Source: Octopus sinensis
Lineage: Eukaryota
Reading direction: 5' to 3'
DNA: 64,000 bases
Assembly (NCBI RefSeq): GCF_006345805.1
Contig: NC_042997.1
Coordinates: 125,488,001 to 125,552,000, forward strand
Positions within the stretch are counted from its first letter, which is position 1; each line of letters starts with the position of its first letter. This document shows positions 1,847 through 52,679 of the stretch, one piece after another. Below the pieces are notes generated by a model. That model ran no database searches. It was not told the origin of the DNA and was given only the letters and a program-made list of their open reading frames with translations. Position numbers and translations under genes: made by a program.

Positions 1847-1875
1847 AACTTTTGAAGGTTGTTTTTTATGTTTAT

Positions 1876-1922
<47 letters not shown>

Positions 1923-1958
1923 TATATATATAAACATAAAAAACAACCTTCAAAAGTT
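1847..1958. repeat. Fold-back palindrome: 28-bp inverted arms around (TA)n
   Basis: aacttttgaaggttgttttttatgttta (1847-1874) is the exact reverse complement of 1931-1958. Confidence 0.9.
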
Positions 1959-2479
1959 TTTTTTGCCACCCTATATTGATTAATTATGAATTTTCTGGTT
2001 ACTTCCGTAATGGAATCGACGGCTTATATTTATTTGCTGCCGATAAATTTGGCGCGAGTGCGATGATTTGAAAATTTTAGGTCAGATATTACCTTGGCAG
2101 GGTCGGAAATGCCTCGTGAAAATATCTGTTCCGACTTGGGCTATTTCTTACTGAAGAATCTGAGGGCCTATGGAAGATTGGCTTGATTTAATTTAATCAG
2201 GTTAGTTTACCATTAAACAGCAGATGAAACGGTGCATCGTATAAGAAATTACAGGGTAAATGTTTTTTAAATTTTCTCCTGTTTACGGAATTGATTTTTA
2301 TTTGCGGTTGAAGCTTTGGCTGTTATTTCTAGTGGGTGAATGGCCTATTATGGCCGTTCCTTGATTGTTGATGTTGAACTTAAAAATGGTCTATGACTAT
2401 TTAATTTTTTCCCACTAGGCCGCTGGTGGCAAAAAAATTCTACAAAATTTTTTTTTGCCACCCTATATTGATTAATTAT
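1951..2479 (+). mobile_element. Terminally redundant HHR-bearing non-coding element (retrozyme-like / Penelope-derived)
   Basis: 37-bp direct repeat at 1951-1987 and 2443-2479 (period 492), internal HHR, (TA)n on the right and a TA fold-back on the left, no long ORF. Confidence 0.7.
2143..2249 (+). ncRNA. Type I hammerhead ribozyme, intact core
   Basis: Stem I atttctta/taagaaat; CTGAAGA 2151-2157; stem II atctg/cagat with long GU-rich extension; GAAA 2226-2229; stem III cgg-tgca-tcg; GTA site, predicted cut after 2241. Confidence 0.85.
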
Positions 2480-2922: not shown

Positions 2923-3507
2923 GAAGGCGGTGAGCGGGCGAAATGCTTAGCGGTATTTCGTCTGCCGCTACGTTCTGAGTTCAAATTCCGCCGAGGTCGA
3001 CTTTGCCTTTCATCCTTCCGGGGTCGATTAAATAAGTACCGTTTATGCACTGGGGTCGATATAATCGACTTAATCCGTTTGCCTGTCCTTGTTTGTCCCC
3101 TCTGTGTTTTGGCCTTTGTGCGTAGTAAAGAAATAGGTATTTCGTCTGCCGCTACGTTCTCAGTTCAAATTCCGCCGAGATCGACTTTGGCTTTCATCCT
3201 TTCGAGGTCGATTAAATAAGTACCAGTTACGAACTGGGGTTGATATAATTGACTTAATCCGTTTGTCTGTCCTTGTTTGTCCCCTCTGCGTGTAGCCAGT
3301 AAAGAAATAAGAAACGTTAGTACGCAGGGCGAAATGTTTAGCGGTATTTCGTCTGTCCTTACGTTCTGAGTTCAAATTCTGCCGAGGTCGACTTTGCCTT
3401 TCATCCTTTCGGGGTGGATAAATTAAGCACCAGCTGCGCACTGGGGTCGATCTAATCGGCTGGCCGCCTCCCCCAAAATTTCAGGCCTTGTGCCTAGAGT
3501 AGAAAAG
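2923..3507 (+). mobile_element. SINE family B, trimeric composite with 17-bp TSD
   Basis: Three copies of core gttctgagttcaaattccgccgaggtcgactttgcctttcatcc; TSD aatataagagagtgaaa at 2906-2922 and 3508-3524. Confidence 0.9.
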
Positions 3508-9665: not shown

Positions 9666-10545
9666 AGGGCCATGAAGAAGAATTACGCAAGAAAGGACTA
9701 CAAAATCAACTCTATGCAGCCTCAACAGAATCTGCCGGAAAAAATAGGTGATATTGACTGATTAAAGGAACACTAAAAAAGAGACCGAGAGCACTATGCT
9801 GGCAGCGCAAGATCAAGATTTGGCCATGAACTGGGGGTGGGGTCAACCTTAAGAATGAGCAAGTGTCTCCGCTGTGCTGCATCTGCAATAGAGTGCATGA
9901 AACCATTGCCCATATCACGAACGAATGCCCAAGACTTGCCCAAAATCACTACAAGTTGTGGCGACACGATCAGGTAGTGAAAGTGCTGTATTGGAAACTG
10001 AGCGAAAAGTGGTGCTAGAGTAAGGGAAGACGTGGTATGAGCACAAACCGCAGAGAGTGACGACGTCGGAAACTAGCAAAATCCTCCGGGATTTCCCAAT
10101 CCAAGCAGATCAGGTCCTAGAGCATAACAGACCTGGCCTAGTGGTGGTGGTCAAGGTGCACGACATATGTTATATAGTTGTTGCATACCGCTTTCACCCA
10201 CGAATAGTCAAGAAGGAAGGCGAAAAGATAGATAAATACAACCCTCTTAAGTACGAAATAGCCCGGCTATGGCAAATGAAGAAGCTGAAGATAGTGTGCG
10301 TGTCAATTATTGCTGGGTCCTTGGGAACACCATTAGAAGGTATCAAGGGAAATATACAGGAAATTGGAATAGAGTACCCAGTAGAACTGTTACAGAAGGT
10401 TTGCCTCCTTGGCACGGCCAGAATAATCAGGAAAGTATTAGATAGCTAAAAATAACGGATAGCATGGTACCATAGGCTACATGGAGCAAGCCCGCTACGC
10501 ATGCAAGACTCCGGGAGCTCCAATAAAACCTGTGATAAAGAGAAT
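9665..10545 (+). mobile_element. 5'-truncated R4/Dong-like LINE (CCHC finger + restriction-like endonuclease), disrupted
   Basis: Translations give LKKETESTMLAAQDQ, CxxC...ETIAHITNEC...RHD, HNRP(G)LVVV, KEGEKIDKY, LQKVCLLGTARIIRKVL; starts right after (AAT)n and ends in taataatgata. Confidence 0.85.
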
Positions 10546-10554
10546 TAATAATGA

Positions 10555-12990
10555 TAGGTACAAATCTAAAACTGTATATTGAGTACTGAATTTGCAAATT
10601 TCTTATCATTGGTCCATAGAAGTGTTATTTCTCTCTTATTTTTCTGACCACGTCAGTGTCCATCGGGTGGCCGACTTCCACAACACAGCATTTTATACTA
10701 CAGTTACACATGTATGTATATCAGGTCTGTTGTGCTTATATTTTATTGAGGTCTTCACTGGTACATTCTACCAGTATTTTTTTTTATTATGAGTGGCTAT
10801 GGCTTCTACCATATTGTGAGTTCATTGTGTCCTAGCTGCGTCATGTCTCATCGGTAGATAATAGCGTGATGACATTTTCAGACAACTGCTTATGATATGC
10901 GTGATATCTTCAGTGTAAAGCTATCACGCCTTTGCTGCATCTCTATCCCTTTTGTGCATCAGGTATTTGGTTGATATTTCCTGTTCCTGGATTGCAAACG
11001 CATACCCTTCAAAGTGGGAGGTAGTAATCTGGCTATTGGTCGATGATAAACTGCTTTGATGATCGATGTTACCATCATCGCGGAGCTTTCTACTAACATA
11101 TCCATGCCTAGTCTTCTGCTCATACAGGCTCATCCTTTCATCTGGTGATATGTTGCGGTAGAGTCGTGCGACTTCTTTCAGCATGTATTCTAGGTTATCA
11201 GACAATGAGTGTTGCTCAAAGAGCTGCCTTCTAAGTCTTATGATGTTATCAACCTCATGTATGCAGACTTGGTCAAGGGATCTACTTCGACACTTGGTGG
11301 TTAAAAGATGTTGCCGGGGGGGGGGGTATGATGCGATATTCAAAAGCATTTTAAATCGATGTTAAGCCTCTACCGCCTTGTTTTCGTTTTAGGTAGAGGC
11401 GGTGTACACCACTGTTTATGCGGAAATTATGTGTGCTTGTTAGTATTTTTCGGCTTTTCACATCAATGGCTCGGATCTCATCAAGCGTCCAATCAAGCAT
11501 CCCTAATGTTGGTATAGGTACTAGCACTGAAAACACATTGTTGGTCACTGTTTTATTGAATGCAGGGAGTTCTAAGGTCCAAATTTTCTTTATTCAACTG
11601 TTATATTCTTTAGTGATAGTGTTTTGTTGCAGGGACCATTATAAGATATATTTTCATCCACCCCTAGATACCTGTAATATTCCTCGTCAGATACAGGGCA
11701 AACAGTCAAATGATTGATGGAGATATTGCTAGTTTGGTTTATAGTCTTCCCCCTTTTCACAATCATATAACATTTATCTTGACCAAACTCCAACCCTACA
11801 TCCTTTGAAAATGTTGTAATTAGGTCAAGGCTCTTTTTCATCTCATGCATATTCTTCGCATAAAGTTTTAAGTCATCCACAAAGAAACAGTGTGTAATTT
11901 TAGTATTTCTGTTACCTTGTGAACCAGTGAGATACCTTCAGACCGCTTTAACAAAGGGTTTACAGAAAGTATACACAATATCACAGAGAGGCTGTCTTCT
12001 TGGAATATGCCTTTGCGATATTGTATTCTATCGGTGATAATACAGTCACTCTTTGCGTTTAATTTCAAGATGGTGGTCCACGATGAAGTCAGGTCAGCTA
12101 TGGCTTTGACTATTCTCACTAGAACTTTAGCAAGCTGAAGGGCTTCTAGCATCCATGAGTGGGGAACAGATTCAAAGGCCTTCTTGCAGTCTAGCCACAT
12201 TGAAACTAGGTTGTTCCTATTCTCTCGCATCTCAGACAACACAGTTTTGTAGATTAACAATTACTCGGTACATCCTTCTTCCCAGCCGCATGTTTTGATG
12301 TGATAATGTTATTGGTTTCACAATGGTCGTAGAAAAAGAGGTTTAAACACGCTGTATATATTTTGTACATTAAGTTCTGGCATGCAATTGGCCGGTAGCT
12401 TTTTTGCCATGTGGGTGGTTCTGCATTTGGGGATCAATTTTGTCTCTGCCAGAGCTAGCCGGTGTGGTATGCTACTGTTCCCAATGAAAGCTTGCCGATA
12501 CAGATTGATAAGATATGGTCGATAGAATGTTTGCTTCTTGTACCAATATCCAACAATCAAGTCTCTTCTAGGAGCTTTTCTATCTTGGAGTTTCTGAATC
12601 AGAGTTTGCAAGAGTTTCACTATCAATGTTGTATGTCTTGGATGTAACGCAGAAGTAATAACTTTTTCGGATTTCTCCCAGCCACAGAGCATCCTGGTTA
12701 AATTCCTCCTCTTCACTCCAGATTTTCCTCCAGAAGGAGTCTATGTCTTCTTGTGAAGGAGCTTCCATAATGTTTACTACTCCTCCTCTCATGTCTCTAT
12801 CTTCTGATGTCGAAGTTTTTCACTGACAGCTTTTAGCTCCTGCTTGAGGGTAATCAGTTTGAAAGTGAGTGTATTCTTTTTGATGTCTCCAAACATCACA
12901 TCTATCTCCTTCTTCACTTTCTGTTGGTGGGACTTTCTCCTCGACAAAGTCCTTCAAAGCCAAATTTCTTTTTCTCGGGAAATTTCAGTA
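10555..12990 (-). mobile_element. Decayed R4/Dong-like LINE with RT domain (frameshifted)
   Basis: ORF pieces WLDCKKAFESVPHSW, GIFQEDSLS, MDDLKLYAK, YRYLGV, RLYLKRKQGGRGL, YAFAIQEQEI in collinear order. Confidence 0.9.
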
Positions 12991-13917: not shown

Positions 13918-15197
13918 TATTTCTTTATTGGCCACACAGGGCTGAACACAAAGGAGACAAAATACAAAATAGGGTTTTTCTTTTTGGGAAGGAAAAAAAG
14001 GGTGGGGTAGAATTTCGATCAAAAAGGATCGTGGAACAAAATGGGTGGAATCCGATCAATAGGGATCGTGTATCACAGAAATGTCATGGTGTAAAATGGG
14101 AAACAGATTAGGTTTCTCTGTGGAAAGAAAAGCCTACAGAAAAGACCACGGTAACCGCAGGCAATGTCATGCAAAAAGCATATTATAGTAAGTGACTCTC
14201 TTTTTTTTTCTTTTTTTTCTTGTTCATAGGATCATGCTCAAGGTGGCTCCGTCATTCCCTCGTGCCATCCTTGCTACATTCACTCATATTTTTTTGAAAC
14301 ATTAACTAAACAAAACTTCCATATCTGCTCTCACCTTCCCCTTCAAGCGATACTTGAAGAAGTTGATGAGAGATTCACCTGAGAGGAAAGTGTTTGTCTC
14401 TAGAACTTTCAGACACATCCACCATACACATTCTTTCACCATAGCCACAAGTACGATGAAAATGGCTCTTCCTTCCCATTTCAGGGAAGCGCGACAATAT
14501 TCATGATAGACTCAGTTGATAAACTGACTCGTCCCATACTCGATAGCAGTCGTTCGACATAAGCCCACAGGTCGGAAATGGTTGAACACTGTACGAGTGC
14601 GTGCAGAACGGTTTTGTCGCTCTGAACGCATCTCGGGTAGGTCGGCCCCGTCTTTCTCGAGCCATGCTTATAGAGCTTATCCCGAACGGGTGGCGCTTCT
14701 CGAGAGCACTGCCAGGCCAGGGATTTCTGGAAGTTGTCCATAGGTCCCGTCCCGAAATTCGTCTTGAACAGGCGGGTCAGGTATTCCTCATCGACGCCCA
14801 GGTTCACTCCGAGATCGTTGTCGTATCTCGCCCCCATTAATCCCCAATAGAATGCTTTGGTTGTGCTGCAGTCGCCGAAGGTCGACCCGGGACGGCAGAC
14901 TTGGTCGAGAGCAGCGCGACACACGCAGTGCCATTCGTCCTTTTTCGGCCTCATTTTGATCCACAACTGCAGTTTGGTCATGGAGACGAGTTGTGGGAAA
15001 GTGCTTCTCACAAACGGCGACCACATCTATTCGCCGTCGTCTATGTAGAGTCGGAGATGTCGCAGTCTCAGCGCGTGTCTGCGCATCATCAGCCACGGCA
15101 TGTCCAGCCGACCATTGGAAATCATCCTTTCCACAAAAAGCGGAAGAGAATGCGTTCTAGTTTGGTGATGGTCGGGTCGGGATAAGGCACGACGGTC
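13918..15197 (-). mobile_element. 5'-truncated L1/Tx1-like LINE 3' portion
   Basis: LERILFRFLWKG, PVRDKLY and zinc-finger-like PRCVQSDKTVLHALVQC; 3'UTR ends aataaagaaata; (GATA)n on both sides. Confidence 0.75.
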
Positions 15198-15722
<525 letters not shown>

Positions 15723-19179: not shown

Positions 19180-20400
19180 ACAACCTTCCTCTCTACAATC
19201 CAGGAACAGGAAATATCAGCCAAATACCTGATGCACAAAAGGGAGAGACGTGTAAGAAGAGCAGTAAAATGTGACAACCGATGCAGACTTTGTGGAGTTA
19301 ACACCGAGGATATTACCCACATCATAAGCATTTGTCCGAAAAAGGCATCACAGTATATCTGCTGATGCGACATGACGTTGTAGGTAGGACGCTGTATAAT
19401 GAGGTCCGTCGAAAGGATAACTCCGAGGACAAAGAAATAAGAACCCACTGTATGGTAGAAGCCATAGCCACTCATAATAAAAAGGAGTACTGGTGGAATG
19501 TCCCAGTGAAGACCTCAATAAAATGTAAACACAGTAGACCTGATATAGTGATTTGTGATAGAAAAGAGAAACTGTGCATAGTCGTGGAAAGTAGTTGCCC
19601 AGCGGATATTAACATAAAGCTCAAGATCAGTGAAAAGGAGAAAACCTACGCTGAATTATTGAGAGATGTGTAGTTTCTCTATCCAGATTACAAGTTCAGG
19701 TTTATACCTGTAATTATCGGGACACTGCCATATGTAATACACTGCCTAAATACCAATCTTGAAAAATTAGGCTTCTCAAAACCAGAAGGGAGAAAGTTAA
19801 TTCGAAAACTACAAATCCAAGCCGTCACTGGAATGGTAAAACCTGTAAAACTTTCCAGAAGCTTATCATTTAAGTATATAGAAGCATGTCTAGTTATGCT
19901 AGTATATGAACGAGAATACAAGAATACATACATGATACTAAGCATACAAATCTGCACATATGCATAAATACCCTGTTACTATATTATTTACATTCGACGG
20001 ATATTTGTCCTGATCCTGTTTATTGTTAACACAACGTTTCGGCTTCTCCAGGTGTCTTTGTGAAATTTCGAACCTGAGTTCTCATTCCTAAGGTATTTTT
20101 CGATGTTGTTGTTGTTGTTGTTGTTCAGGTCACTGCTTGGAATCAAACTGGGAATTTCCCCAAGACACCTGAAGAAGGCCGGAGAGTATATCAGTTGAAA
20201 TGTGTTAACAACAAAGAAGATGAGGACAAATATTCGTCGAATATAAATAATGTAAAAAATGTACATAATTCCTCATCTCTTAAATATAGAACTGTAATAT
20301 CCTGTTGCCGATATTGAAATTCCAGTGAAGTAGCCTTGAATTTAGGTGAGAAACCGGCCCTTTCTCTATTGGCAAGAAATCTTGTAATAGAACTGAACAA
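19180..20400 (+). mobile_element. R4/Dong-like LINE 3' portion, 3'UTR interrupted by an inverted HHR element
   Basis: IQEQEISAKYLMHKR, CRLC...DITHIISIC, MRHDVVG, HSRPDIV, EKEKTYAEL; same family as 10555-12990. Confidence 0.85.
19980..20300. mobile_element. Inverted-repeat element with degenerate minimal HHR in each arm
   Basis: Arms ~19980-20069 and ~20151-20254; + arm gacac-CTGAAGA-...-GAAA-tgtgtt; - arm gacac-CTGGAGA-agcc-GAAA-cg-TT-gtgtt. Confidence 0.65.
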
Positions 20401-22606: not shown

Positions 22607-23019
22607 CGGCGAGCTAGCAGAAACGGTAGCACGCCGGGCGAAATACTAAGCGGTATTTAGTCTGCCGCTACGTTCTGAGTTCCAATTCCGCCGAGGTCAA
22701 CTTTGCCTTTCATCCTTTCGGGGTCGATAAATTAAGTACCAGTTACGCACTGGGGTCGATGTAATTGACTTAATCCGTTTGTCTGTCCTTGTTCGTCCCC
22801 TCTGTGTTTAGCCCCTTGTGGGTAGTAAAGAAATAGGTATTTCGTCTGCCGCTACGTTCTGAGTTCAAATTCCGCCGAGGTCGACTTTGCCTTTCATCCT
22901 TTCGGGGTCGATTAAATAAGTACCAGTTACGCACTGGGGTCGATATAATCGACTTAATCTGTTTGTCTGTCTTTGTTTGTCCCCTCTGTGTGTAGTCCCT
23001 TGTGGGCAGTAAAGAAATA
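22607..23019 (+). mobile_element. SINE family B dimer with 10-bp TSD
   Basis: agaaactaga at 22597-22606 and 23020-23029; two core+tail units. Confidence 0.9.
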
Positions 23020-31490: not shown

Positions 31491-31908
31491 TATTTCTTTA
31501 CTGCCCACAAGGGGCTACACACAGAGGGGAGAAACAAAGACAGATTAACGGATTAAGTCGATTACATCGACCCCAGTGCGTAACAGGTACTTATTTAATC
31601 GACCCCGAAAGGCTGAAAGGCAAAGTTGACCTCAGCGGAATTTGAACTGAGAACGTAGCGGCAGACGAAAATACCTATTTCTTTACTACCCACAAGGGGC
31701 TAAACACAGAGAGGACAAACAAGGACTGACAAACAGATTAAATCGATTATATCGACTCCAGTGCGTAACTGGTATTTAATTTATCGATCCCGAAAGGATG
31801 AAAGGCAAAGTCAACCTCGGCGGAATTTGAACTCACAACGTAGTGCCAGACGAAATACAGCTACGCATTTCGCCCGACGTGCTAATGTTTCTGCCAGATC
31901 GCCGCCTT
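31491..31908 (-). mobile_element. SINE family B dimer
   Basis: Two core+tail units; imperfect TSD tggaagtagaacaca / tggtagtagaataca. Confidence 0.9.
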
Positions 31909-51495: not shown

Positions 51496-51537
<42 letters not shown>

Positions 51538-51539
<2 letters not shown>

Positions 51540-51983
51540 GCCTCCTAGGGCTATACAACGGTGGTGTGCCCCCTACTGTCACGTTCTTGTTAGATTGACA
51601 GTATACAACCATTCTATCGCCCCACCACCGTACATGTCTCTACGAGAGATTTAGAAATTCAATATTTCTTATTTTGATAATCAGTGAATAAACTTCACTG
51701 AGTATACATATATACAATTATGAAGTCGAGGCAAATATCACCAGCCGGCCGGTGTCTGCTACTCTAGACCGATGAAGGACAATGATCCTGAAACACGGTG
51801 TCCCTAGATGCAGTTCCGGCGGCCGGGGGTGTTTGTCTCCCCTTCGTATAAGTATATAAGGACAGAGGGAAAGAAATGTGTCGAAGCTATCAGGAGGCGT
51901 TCGATGCCTCCTAGGGCTATACAACGGTGGTGTACCCCCTACTGTCACGTTCTTGTTAGATTGACAGTATACAACCATTCTAT
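51538..51983 (+). mobile_element. Terminally redundant HHR-bearing non-coding element (retrozyme-like), 366-bp period
   Basis: 80-bp direct repeats 51538-51617 and 51904-51983 (1 mismatch), (TA)n on both sides, central HHR. Confidence 0.75.
51728..51839 (+). ncRNA. Type I HHR with extended stem I
   Basis: tctaga-CCGATGA-agga(caatga)tcct-GAAA-cacggtg-TC-cctaga; outer pairing gaggcaaatatc/ggtgtttgtctc with GU pairs; GTC site at 51800-51802. Confidence 0.75.
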
Positions 51984-51994
51984 ATATATATATT

Positions 51995-52028
<34 letters not shown>

Positions 52029-52039
52029 ACCTCGTGAGT

Positions 52040-52243
52040 ACCGTTGGCGATTTTTTTTCCTCTGTCTTCCCTTCTCGGGATCTTTCCTTCTCCTATGTTT
52101 CCGACGAAGAGCTCCGCTCAAAACGTTAAACCTTCCTTCTTCCCTTCTTTCCTGAGCGTCCAACAATACTATATTTGTTCCACGTCCTCGCGTTGTTGTG
52201 TTTTTTTGTTTTTTTTTTTGTGTGTTTTCTTGTTTGGATTAAC

Positions 52244-52279: not shown

Positions 52280-52679
52280 ATATATATACACGTATATTTT
52301 GTTTTTTACTGTCTATATTTTTGTACTGTCGTTACTGTCTCGTTTTTTTACCATTCTTTACCCCTCTGCGAAAAGATCTCAGAATTTTAATTGATTTGCT
52401 TTTCGCAGGAAGGAAAGTTTCTTGTCGAAGATACGTCTCGCTTTTATCCTTCGAAACGTAGAGTAGATGAAACCTTAGCGACTGAAGAAGGGGTTTTTTC
52501 GTTGTTTTGTTGTTTTTAAAAAAATGTCCTGTTCCTTTGGTTTGTGTCTATGTTTTCGTTTCTCTATGTGTTCGACGTCCCTTTGGTGTCCTGTACTCAT
52601 ATATGCGTGTATATGTACATGTAGAGGTAGGTACGTACATATATGTTTATATATACGCATATGTTTTATTTCTTTTATT

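What the first reader, a model, noticed from the sequence alone, without database searches (positions are those of the whole stretch)
51538..51983. Second, unrelated retrozyme-like unit (366-bp period, 80-bp redundancy) in (TA)n
Seen: 80-bp direct repeats with one mismatch and a central type I HHR with a GUC site and near-palindromic stem III (acac-g-gtgt). Stem I extends ~40 nt with several GU pairs. Extra hairpins include aggaggcg-ttcga-tgcctcct, whose loop coincides with the start of the repeat. The core reads CCGAUGA (U4C) in this copy. No similarity to the 1951 unit is visible, yet the architecture is the same. Inference: a separate family of structured circular RNAs; the size fits reported animal non-LTR retrozymes.
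Basis: partly seen in the sequence, partly recalled or inferred. Interest (0 to 1): 0.85.

Follow-up and report, generated by a model that had tools for sequence, protein, structure and literature searches.

The report
Penelope-type retrozyme with damped hammerhead core
A 446-base non-coding insert in a TA microsatellite carries a hammerhead RNA motif with an unusual core letter and belongs to a repeat family with two recurring ends; it is likely a small parasitic retroelement (retrozyme) of an octopus-like animal that Penelope-type enzymes would copy, and its self-cutting and RNA circles are untested.

Summary
51538-51983 is a 366-bp unit plus an 80-bp terminal redundancy (one mismatch) inside (TA)n. 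It carries a real type I hammerhead: canonical helix lengths and all three tertiary-contact nucleotides of the Schistosoma ribozyme; 1 of 3000 shuffles gave such a motif. Contigs of four public runs show a many-copy family, so the repeat is element sequence, not host DNA. Two corrections follow. Second, copies are not randomly permuted at their 3' end: they stop at two recurring sites (51617 and 51669-73) in AT-rich DNA, which resembles the Penelope 'tail' left by internal priming. Stem III varies only in its loop (0, 1 or 3 nt) and stays near-palindromic, which fits cutting as a dimer. This copy has one ribozyme and cannot release a circle alone. Best reading: a solo copy of a non-autonomous, Penelope-mobilised retrozyme family with a damped ribozyme. 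Cleavage, circles, tandem masters, expression and the host (likely octopus, from recall) are untested. New variant of a known kind.

The parts
51496..51539 (.). Left flank (CA)9(TA)n microsatellite, the insertion target; with 51984-52027 it forms a 44-nt inverted repeat around the element
   Evidence: (I1, 98% complementary)
51538..51617 (+). R1: first copy of the terminal redundancy (75-80 bp); begins at the 3' arm of the hairpin whose 5' arm is missing at this end
51558..51631 (+). Stem-loop formed between R and the unique part, with an AC-rich internal loop that contains the first recurring 3' end (51617)
   Evidence: end site table 7
51618..51673 (+). 'Tail' between the two recurring 3' ends of the family (51617 and 51669-73); laid 1.8-7.0 times deeper than the ribozyme, so probably shared with sister subfamilies
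   Evidence: tables 2 and 7
51709..51858 (+). Long rod that extends hammerhead stem I (46 bp, 5 G-U)
51759..51810 (+). Type I hammerhead: internal loop UAC 51760-62 opposite U51809; stem I 51763-67/51804-08 with A51768·C51803 mismatch; core CCGAUGA (U4C); loop 2 CAAUGA; GAA; near-palindromic stem III; predicted cut after C51802
   Evidence: tertiary nucleotides compared with PMC2632901
51853..51859 (+). TATA-like TATATAA, 45-50 nt upstream of the element's 5' end position; weak promoter candidate because it is also part of the base of the rod
   Evidence: sequence; pairing; TATAAGG kept in variant loose ends
51892..51912 (+). 9-bp hairpin across the unique/R2 junction; the copy's 5' end maps to its loop/3' arm
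51904..51983 (+). R2: second copy of the redundancy; its end is the first recurring 3' end, with TAT microhomology to the target
51984..52027 (.). Right flank (TA)n(TG)9 microsatellite

Best explanation
The element is a single, 1.2-unit copy of a many-copy non-coding repeat family that carries a type I hammerhead with a U4C core, and it is likely a retrozyme that a Penelope-like retrotransposon's enzymes would copy into TA microsatellites. Shown: the anatomy, the many-copy family, U4C and the A·C mismatch as majority states, loop-only variation of stem III, and two recurring 3' ends in AT-rich DNA. Inferred: tandem master copies elsewhere are transcribed into multimeric RNA; the damped ribozyme cuts slowly and mainly as a dimer through its palindromic stem III; a host ligase closes the 366-nt monomer, in which the core is predicted to be blocked by an alternative pairing so that the circle stays closed; a Penelope-type endonuclease nicks (TA)n, and its reverse transcriptase starts inside the RNA at one of two sites, copies through the cleavage site and stops after more than one unit, here at the loop of a strong hairpin. 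This copy has one ribozyme and would not release a circle by itself.
For: Hammerhead beyond chance, with helix I of 6 and helix II of 4 positions as in canonical metazoan motifs (PMC4209133), and with IL1.U1, IL1.C8, L2.A6 and the C:A opposition described for the Schistosoma ribozyme (PMC2632901) at 51809, 51762, 51785 and 51780. Many-copy family: 1092 and 2262 contigs laid in X1 and X2, all 30 bins covered; 20 holder runs in 11 studies. Stem III variants keep ACAC/GUGU and change only the loop: 51797 left out in 15% of X1 depth, and a 3-nt loop form in loose ends of 7 X1 and 4 X9 contigs that also restores the 2.1-1.1 pair. Self-duplex of stem III is -9.3 kcal/mol, and -10.3 without 51797. 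The monomer fold blocks the core: the active fold lies 6.3 kcal/mol above the minimum, and the core is unpaired with P = 0.007. 3' ends with unrelated AT-rich flanks: 8 contigs at 51617 (X1); 13 (X1), 15 (X2) and 5 (X13) at 51669-73; depth falls 2.1- to 5.2-fold there. This matches two internal start sites bounding a tail, an AC-rich stem-loop start and AT-rich targets in the anole element (PMC11167929). Size 366 and GC 45% fit metazoan retrozymes. Solo monomers and a Penelope origin are described (10.64898/2026.07.22.740005). Minimal-hammerhead remnants of Penelope type lie in the same window.
Against: One ribozyme only; no tandem copy was seen, and contigs cannot show arrays. Two departures next to the active site (U4C, A·C) could make the ribozyme nearly dead. 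Eight of nine Xenopus retrozyme dimers did not cleave in vitro, and the anole element uses uncut RNA. Conservation of the ribozyme region is not significant on its own: 0 of 22 C/G letters inside against 16 of 155 outside in X1 (p = 0.11), and 0 of 26 A/G letters against 17 of 163 in X2 (p = 0.07). Variants at paired sites keep pairing in 14 of 20 rows against 10.8 expected, and 6 break it, one of them (T51805C, X13 only) in stem I; the data carry no phase, so covariation is untested. The tail here is 52-56 nt, against 30-40 nt described. No autonomous partner was identified.
Confidence: 0.5

Rival explanations
1. Same kind of element and same Penelope-type helper, but no circle is needed: an uncut, more-than-unit linear transcript (from tandem masters, started near the TATA-like box) is the template, and the ribozyme is damped or vestigial because cutting would destroy the template.
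For: U4C and A·C are majority states in X1 and X2 although C4 sits in a CpG, and 6 of 18 CpG sites show transitions in X1. Every full copy must be read through the cut site. In the anole element ribozyme mutants do not affect insertion and uncut RNA is the main substrate. The 5' end lies 45-50 nt downstream of a TATA-like box.
Against: The tertiary-contact nucleotides and palindromic stem III are kept, which suggests selection for a working ribozyme. U4C supports viroid infectivity in vivo (citing sentence in PMC3088659). The TATA-like letters are also explained by pairing in the rod.
Confidence: 0.3
2. The piece is the pseudo-LTR end of an autonomous Penelope-like element, left as a truncated partial tandem, and not a short family in its own right.
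For: The 3' segment 51594-51670 is laid 1.8-7.0 times deeper than the ribozyme, so longer relatives share it. Some X13 contigs leave the stretch at internal points. Partial tandems and tails are typical of these elements.
Against: The unit closes on itself with a period of 366 and has no frame above 95 codons. Contigs run across both R/unique junctions (table 8). The ribozyme is canonical in geometry, whereas metazoan Penelope ribozymes are mostly minimal. Three 10-12-nt motifs did not match Naiad or other consensus ends in the supplement of PMC8557442, apart from one unrelated context (one strand only, wrapped lines).
Confidence: 0.12
3. A miniature LTR element (TRIM-like or LTR retrozyme) in which the 80-bp repeats are LTRs.
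For: Repeat-unique-repeat layout; TG near the start of R; a 13-nt purine run at 51864.
Against: R does not end in CA and no TGG primer-binding start follows R1; the purine run is 27 nt from R2 (LTR end rules recalled). The family has two 3' ends. The ribozyme is type I and central, not type III within the repeats.
Confidence: 0.04
4. The 80-bp repeat is host DNA duplicated at insertion, or the hammerhead is a chance look-alike.
For: No Rfam hammerhead hit; two departures from the consensus.
Against: R is among the deepest-covered parts of the family, is continuous with the unique part in contigs and pairs with it. Motif chance is 1 of 3000, and the tertiary signature adds about 3 in 10,000 by base composition, counted after the fact.
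Confidence: 0.02

Closest known systems
Metazoan non-LTR retrozymes (Cervera and de la Pena 2020, PMC7229834; parts 1-4 of 6 read, supplement not readable)
   Same: Canonical-geometry type I hammerhead in a short non-coding unit; 366 bp is within the mussel range of 350-390 bp; GC below 50%; strongly self-paired monomer.
   Different: Described as tandem repeats with shown cleavage and circles. Here there is a dispersed 1.2-unit copy with one ribozyme, a U4C core and an A·C closing mismatch as majority states, a core predicted to be blocked in the monomer, and two recurring 3' ends.
Retrozymes as non-autonomous Penelope-like sequences (Li, Clavereau and Pollet 2026, 10.64898/2026.07.22.740005; parts 1-3 of 5 read, supplements closed)
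   Same: Solo monomer copies dispersed through the genome; proposed mobilisation by Penelope-like elements.
   Different: Vertebrates and four invertebrates only, no mollusc named in the text read; their search needs two complete motifs in tandem, so this copy would not count as active.
Penelope-like element PAc of the green anole (Frangieh et al. 2024, PMC11167929; parts 1-2 of 4 read)
   Same: AT-rich targets; two internal start sites downstream of the hammerhead that bound a tail; first site in an AC-rich stem-loop.
   Different: Autonomous, 30-40-bp tail, ORF starting in the ribozyme. This element is non-coding with a 52-56-nt tail.
Schistosoma mansoni type I hammerhead (as described in Dufour et al., PMC2632901; passages read)
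   Same: UAC internal-loop strand, opposite U, six-nt loop 2 beginning with C and ending with A.
   Different: C at core position 4, A·C at 2.1/1.1, A-U at 10.1/11.1.
U4C hammerhead of a viroid (Ambros and Flores 1998; not read, seen only as cited in PMC3088659)
   Same: Same core change, reported as much slower in vitro yet sufficient in vivo.
   Different: There a rare variant of a viroid; here the majority state of a many-copy animal repeat family.

Membership tests
Type I hammerhead ribozyme | Three helices around the core, helix I open-ended | tested here: met
   1 of 3000 shuffles
Type I hammerhead ribozyme | Core CUGANGA / GAA / NUH | tested here: not met
   One departure, U4C, in this copy and as majority in X1 and X2 (all 9 C>T places of X1 are among the listed rows and none is 51770). 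All other core letters are canonical. U4C is a known natural working variant.
Type I hammerhead ribozyme | Loop 1-loop 2 tertiary nucleotides | tested here: met
   U51809, C51762, A51785, C51780 against PMC2632901
Type I hammerhead ribozyme | Self-cleavage | not testable with these tools
   needs an in vitro assay
Metazoan non-LTR retrozyme | Short (about 150-450 bp), GC below 50%, non-coding unit | tested here: met
   366 bp, GC 45%; stops in all six frames; no tRNA gene
Metazoan non-LTR retrozyme | Many-copy dispersed family | tested here: met
   (different flanks at recurring ends)
Metazoan non-LTR retrozyme | Tandem units with at least two ribozymes | tested here: inconclusive
   Not met in this copy (1.2 units, one ribozyme). 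Not testable for the family: no genome held, and contigs collapse an 80-bp repeat.
Metazoan non-LTR retrozyme | Expressed as linear and circular RNA | not testable with these tools
   only contigs were available
Penelope-like elements (non-autonomous derivative) | Two internal 3' ends bounding a tail; AT-rich or (TA)n targets | tested here: met
   51617 and 51669-73 against PMC11167929; tail longer than described; only 24 of 266 loose-end rows were shown
Penelope-like elements (non-autonomous derivative) | Sequence homology to the pseudo-LTR of an autonomous partner | tested here: inconclusive
   No partner in the window; three short motifs against the PMC8557442 supplement gave no relevant match; no library or genome to search
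Autonomous Penelope-like element | RT and GIY-YIG ORF | tested here: not met
LTR retrozyme / TRIM | Type III ribozyme in LTRs, PBS, adjacent PPT, fixed LTR ends | tested here: not met
Coding viroid-like circles with endless ORF | Stop-free frame around a circle whose length is a multiple of three | tested here: not met
   366 = 3 x 122, but 2-9 stops in every frame

The most novel reading that the evidence does not exclude
A retrozyme family has spread to many copies with a tuned-down ribozyme (U4C plus an opened closing pair) that CUGANGA searches and Rfam miss, and both ends of its copies record the Penelope mechanism. The 3' ends mark two internal priming sites. The 5' end falls in a hairpin loop, here and in the unrelated 1951 unit, because the copied hairpin folds back to prime the second strand and is then opened in its loop. 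This would give a minimal 366-nt model for how Penelope-type elements finish integration and for whether ribozyme cutting helps or hinders them.
Probability: 0.15. Interest if true: 0.75.

Novelty: new variant of a known kind. Interest (0 to 1): 0.44.

Why it matters
The role of hammerheads in Penelope-like elements and retrozymes is stated as open in the papers read. A successful family whose majority ribozyme has a damped core, next to a sister form with the closing pair restored, is a natural experiment on whether cutting is needed for spread. It also suggests that descriptor-based counts miss whole animal families. If the host is an octopus, it would extend retrozymes to cephalopods, for which my searches found no report. 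The limits: retrozymes are known from many animals including a mollusc, and U4C is a known natural variant.

Tried and rejected
Own genome: none held, so there is no copy alignment, no phased covariation test and no covariance model. Expression: no RNA holder listed. Two runs guessed to be RNA (X9, X13) cover all 30 bins, but their type is not on record, no silent control was laid, and their profiles follow the DNA run X1 (Spearman 0.90 and 0.75), so they are not used as evidence. The 'goes back 366/367' joints are explained by the terminal redundancy and do not show circles. Rfam: nothing at gathering and only chance microRNA-type hits. Collection scans: 6 viral and 4 metagenome matches to a ribozyme pattern were all 10 unrelated beyond the pattern; a 21-nt R pattern gave 0 in viral and 0 in genome contigs. 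Host: a protein search with a LINE fragment returned 3 unnamed proteins and a SINE motif was in no paper, so 'octopus' rests on my recall of the SINE and microsatellite landscape. Octopus Naiad elements target (TA)n but are described as long inactive in cephalopods and lacking canonical hammerheads, and the end excerpts seen did not resemble this element by eye, so they were not taken as the partner. The bacterial promoter scan is not applicable. Endless ORF, TRIM and host-duplication readings were rejected. Earlier findings by sequence and by place gave nothing. Supplements that I could not see (PMC7229834 PDF, the 2026 preprint's tables, the O. vulgaris repeat library on Zenodo) may already hold this family.

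Full report
Observation. The stretch 51538-51983 lies between (CA)9(TA)n and (TA)n(TG)9. It has two 80-nt direct repeats, 99% identical and 366 apart; the end letters overlap the TA target, so 75-80 bp is safe. The plus strand folds far better than shuffles: z -7.2 linear and -6.4 as a 366-nt circle, against -4.3 and -3.8 for the minus strand. A type I hammerhead is present with core CCGAUGA at 51769, a 4-bp stem II, GAA, stem III ACAC-G-GUGU and a predicted cut after C51802. A descriptor allowing U or C at position 4 was met by 1 of 3000 monomer shuffles and by 0 sites in 20 shuffled windows; the real window had this hit and one weak AT-rich hit. Stem I extends to 46 pairs with 5 G-U. There is no similarity to the 1951 unit. 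Rfam finds no hammerhead.

The ribozyme is genuine in architecture. Dufour et al. (PMC2632901, passages) give the Schistosoma internal loop and loop 2, and name IL1.U1, IL1.C8 and L2.A6 as the tertiary motif, with a C:A opposition in loop 2. The element has UAC at 51760-62, U51809, and loop 2 CAAUGA. Helix lengths of 6 and 4 and a small palindromic helix III are the canonical metazoan form that works as a dimer (PMC4209133, parts 1-2 of 4).

Family. No genome is held. Twenty public runs in 11 studies and 5 organism labels hold the stretch or a part of it, 10 of them half of its words or more. I laid 4 of the 24 listed runs, all contigs, on 51568-51953 at 80% likeness: 1092, 2262, 166 and 75 contigs, all 30 bins covered in each. 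Depth there is no copy number, but unrelated flanks at the same end points show many loci. X1 may be the window's own sample; X2 carries another organism label. R is among the deepest parts and is continuous with the unique part, so it is not host DNA. The table showed 40 of 61 difference rows, but its tallies by kind close the gap. In X1 all 9 C>T and all 7 G>A places are among the listed rows and none lies in the ribozyme, so C51770 and C51803 are not T at 5% or more; one A>G place is unlisted and could be 51768. In X2 all A and G changes are listed and none is in the ribozyme, and one C>T is unlisted. U4C and the A·C mismatch are therefore majority states among contigs that could be laid. 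This holds although C4 is in a CpG and 6 of 18 CpG sites show transitions in X1. Subfamilies under 80% alike are invisible. Loose ends of 7 X1 and 4 X9 contigs show a sister form with a 3-nt loop III and U at 1.1; its position 4 is not visible. A form without 51797 makes a perfect palindrome (15% of X1 depth, 0.1% of X2, 23-24% of X9 and X13). Stem III thus varies only in its loop.

Results that do not help my reading. The lack of variation in the ribozyme is not significant alone (p = 0.11 and 0.07). Of 20 variant rows at paired sites 14 keep the pair against 10.8 expected, and 6 break it; one of these (G51821A) pairs with the majority U51746, three lie in a weak helix, and one is in stem I in X13 only. 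Seven of the 20 rows at unpaired sites would add a pair. The data have no phase, so covariation is untested.

Ends. Among the 24 of 266 loose-end rows shown, copies leave into unrelated AT-rich DNA at 51617 (8 contigs, X1; this copy's own end position) and at 51669-73 (13 in X1, 15 in X2, 5 in X13). Depth drops 2.1- to 5.2-fold at the second site, and the segment before it is 1.8-7.0 times deeper than the ribozyme. Frangieh et al. (PMC11167929, parts 1-2 of 4) showed that a Penelope-type enzyme nicks AT-rich DNA and starts inside the RNA at two sites that bound the tail, one in an AC-rich stem-loop; 51617 lies in such a loop. The tail here is 52-56 nt against 30-40. (TA)n preference is described for Naiad and suggested for Neptune elements (PMC8557442, passages and supplement rows). 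5' ends of other copies were not among the rows shown. This copy's 5' end lies at the loop of a 9-bp hairpin, and that of the unrelated 1951 unit at the loop of a 13-bp hairpin; such positions make up 4% and 15% of the two monomers for stems of 8 bp or more, and 18% and 21% for any hairpin. That is two cases noticed after the fact.

Mechanism. Shown: anatomy, family, majority states, recurring 3' ends. Inferred: tandem masters give multimeric RNA; the ribozyme cuts slowly and as a dimer (stem III self-duplex -9.3 kcal/mol); in the monomer the core letters 51768-71 pair with 51796-99, the active fold costs 6.3 kcal/mol in a model without tertiary contacts, and the core is free with P = 0.007, which would keep a circle closed; a Penelope-type enzyme copies more than one unit into (TA)n. 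I put about 0.8 on the class (Penelope-mobilised, retrozyme-type element), split 0.5 for a circular and 0.3 for an uncut linear template. The linear rival is serious: the anole enzyme uses uncut RNA, and 8 of 9 Xenopus dimers did not cleave. This copy has one ribozyme and is a solo copy either way.

Comparison. It works like the metazoan non-LTR retrozymes of PMC7229834 (parts 1-4 of 6; review passages in PMC7761336, and PMC6155905) and fits the Penelope origin argued in the 2026 preprint (parts 1-3 of 5). Formal membership is open, because tandem copies, cleavage and circles were not testable and the strict core is not met. U4C is a known natural variant (PMC3088659, passages and section 8; the 1998 source was not read), and unchecked earlier notes report it often in phages. 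Searches for 'U4C' and 'CCGAUGA' with 'hammerhead' gave one paper each, neither on an animal repeat family by title and abstract start or passage. Searches pairing hammerhead or retrozyme with octopus or cephalopod listed no report of one (listings only, 25 of 203 shown). The host is likely an octopus, from recall of its SINE and microsatellite landscape; searches did not confirm it. If so, helpers exist: O. vulgaris has 190 Penelope-like families covering 6.83% of the genome, 31 with recent copies (PMC13282606, parts 1-2 of 3 and supplement search).

Verdict. A real element and a new variant of a known kind, more ordinary than the first score of 0.85 implies. Its worth lies in the family-wide damped core and in ends that record the Penelope mechanism. 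Interest 0.44.

Noticed in passing
window 52028-52243 (+), motif about 52097-52135; second copy 47957-47832 (-): A separate repeat between microsatellites, directly right of the finding, with a minimal hammerhead of Penelope type (stem II GAGC/GCUC, no loop III). The two copies are 85% alike; position 4 is C in one and U in the other, and both have A in place of G12, so they are probably dead.
   Followed up: partly
window 1939-2479 (+): The '1951 unit': 492-bp period, canonical CUGAAGA core at 2151, 68-nt stem II domain, near-palindromic stem III, predicted cut after 2241, 238 nt before its 3' end (233-237 nt for the second end of the present family). Fold z -4.9. Its 5' end lies in a 13-bp hairpin loop.
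   Followed up: partly
window 1847-1958: 56-nt inverted repeat around (TA)n directly left of the 1951 unit; it looks like a fold-back duplication of the target flank made at insertion.
   Followed up: no
window 51496-51539 and 51984-52027: The microsatellite flanks are near mirror images (44 nt, 98% complementary), so the element sits at the centre of a palindrome; 4 other CA-TA-TG palindromes occur in the window.
   Followed up: partly
window 52290-52600 and about 20160-20220: Further CUGAAGA-containing pieces that look like decayed Penelope-type ends; neither met the descriptor.
   Followed up: no
run X13 on window 51739-51825: One contig (depth 12) joins 51739 to 51825, skipping or replacing the whole ribozyme hairpin; it could be a ribozyme-less variant or a template switch.
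   Followed up: no
window 10024-12740 (-) and 14481-15026 (-): Broken LINE reverse-transcriptase regions; the second matches three unnamed proteins, one with PF13966.
   Followed up: partly
window 2952-3288, 15304-15670, 22652-23019, 31491-31855: Tandem pairs of a 184-bp SINE-like unit; my recall of this repeat is the main basis for the octopus guess.
   Followed up: no
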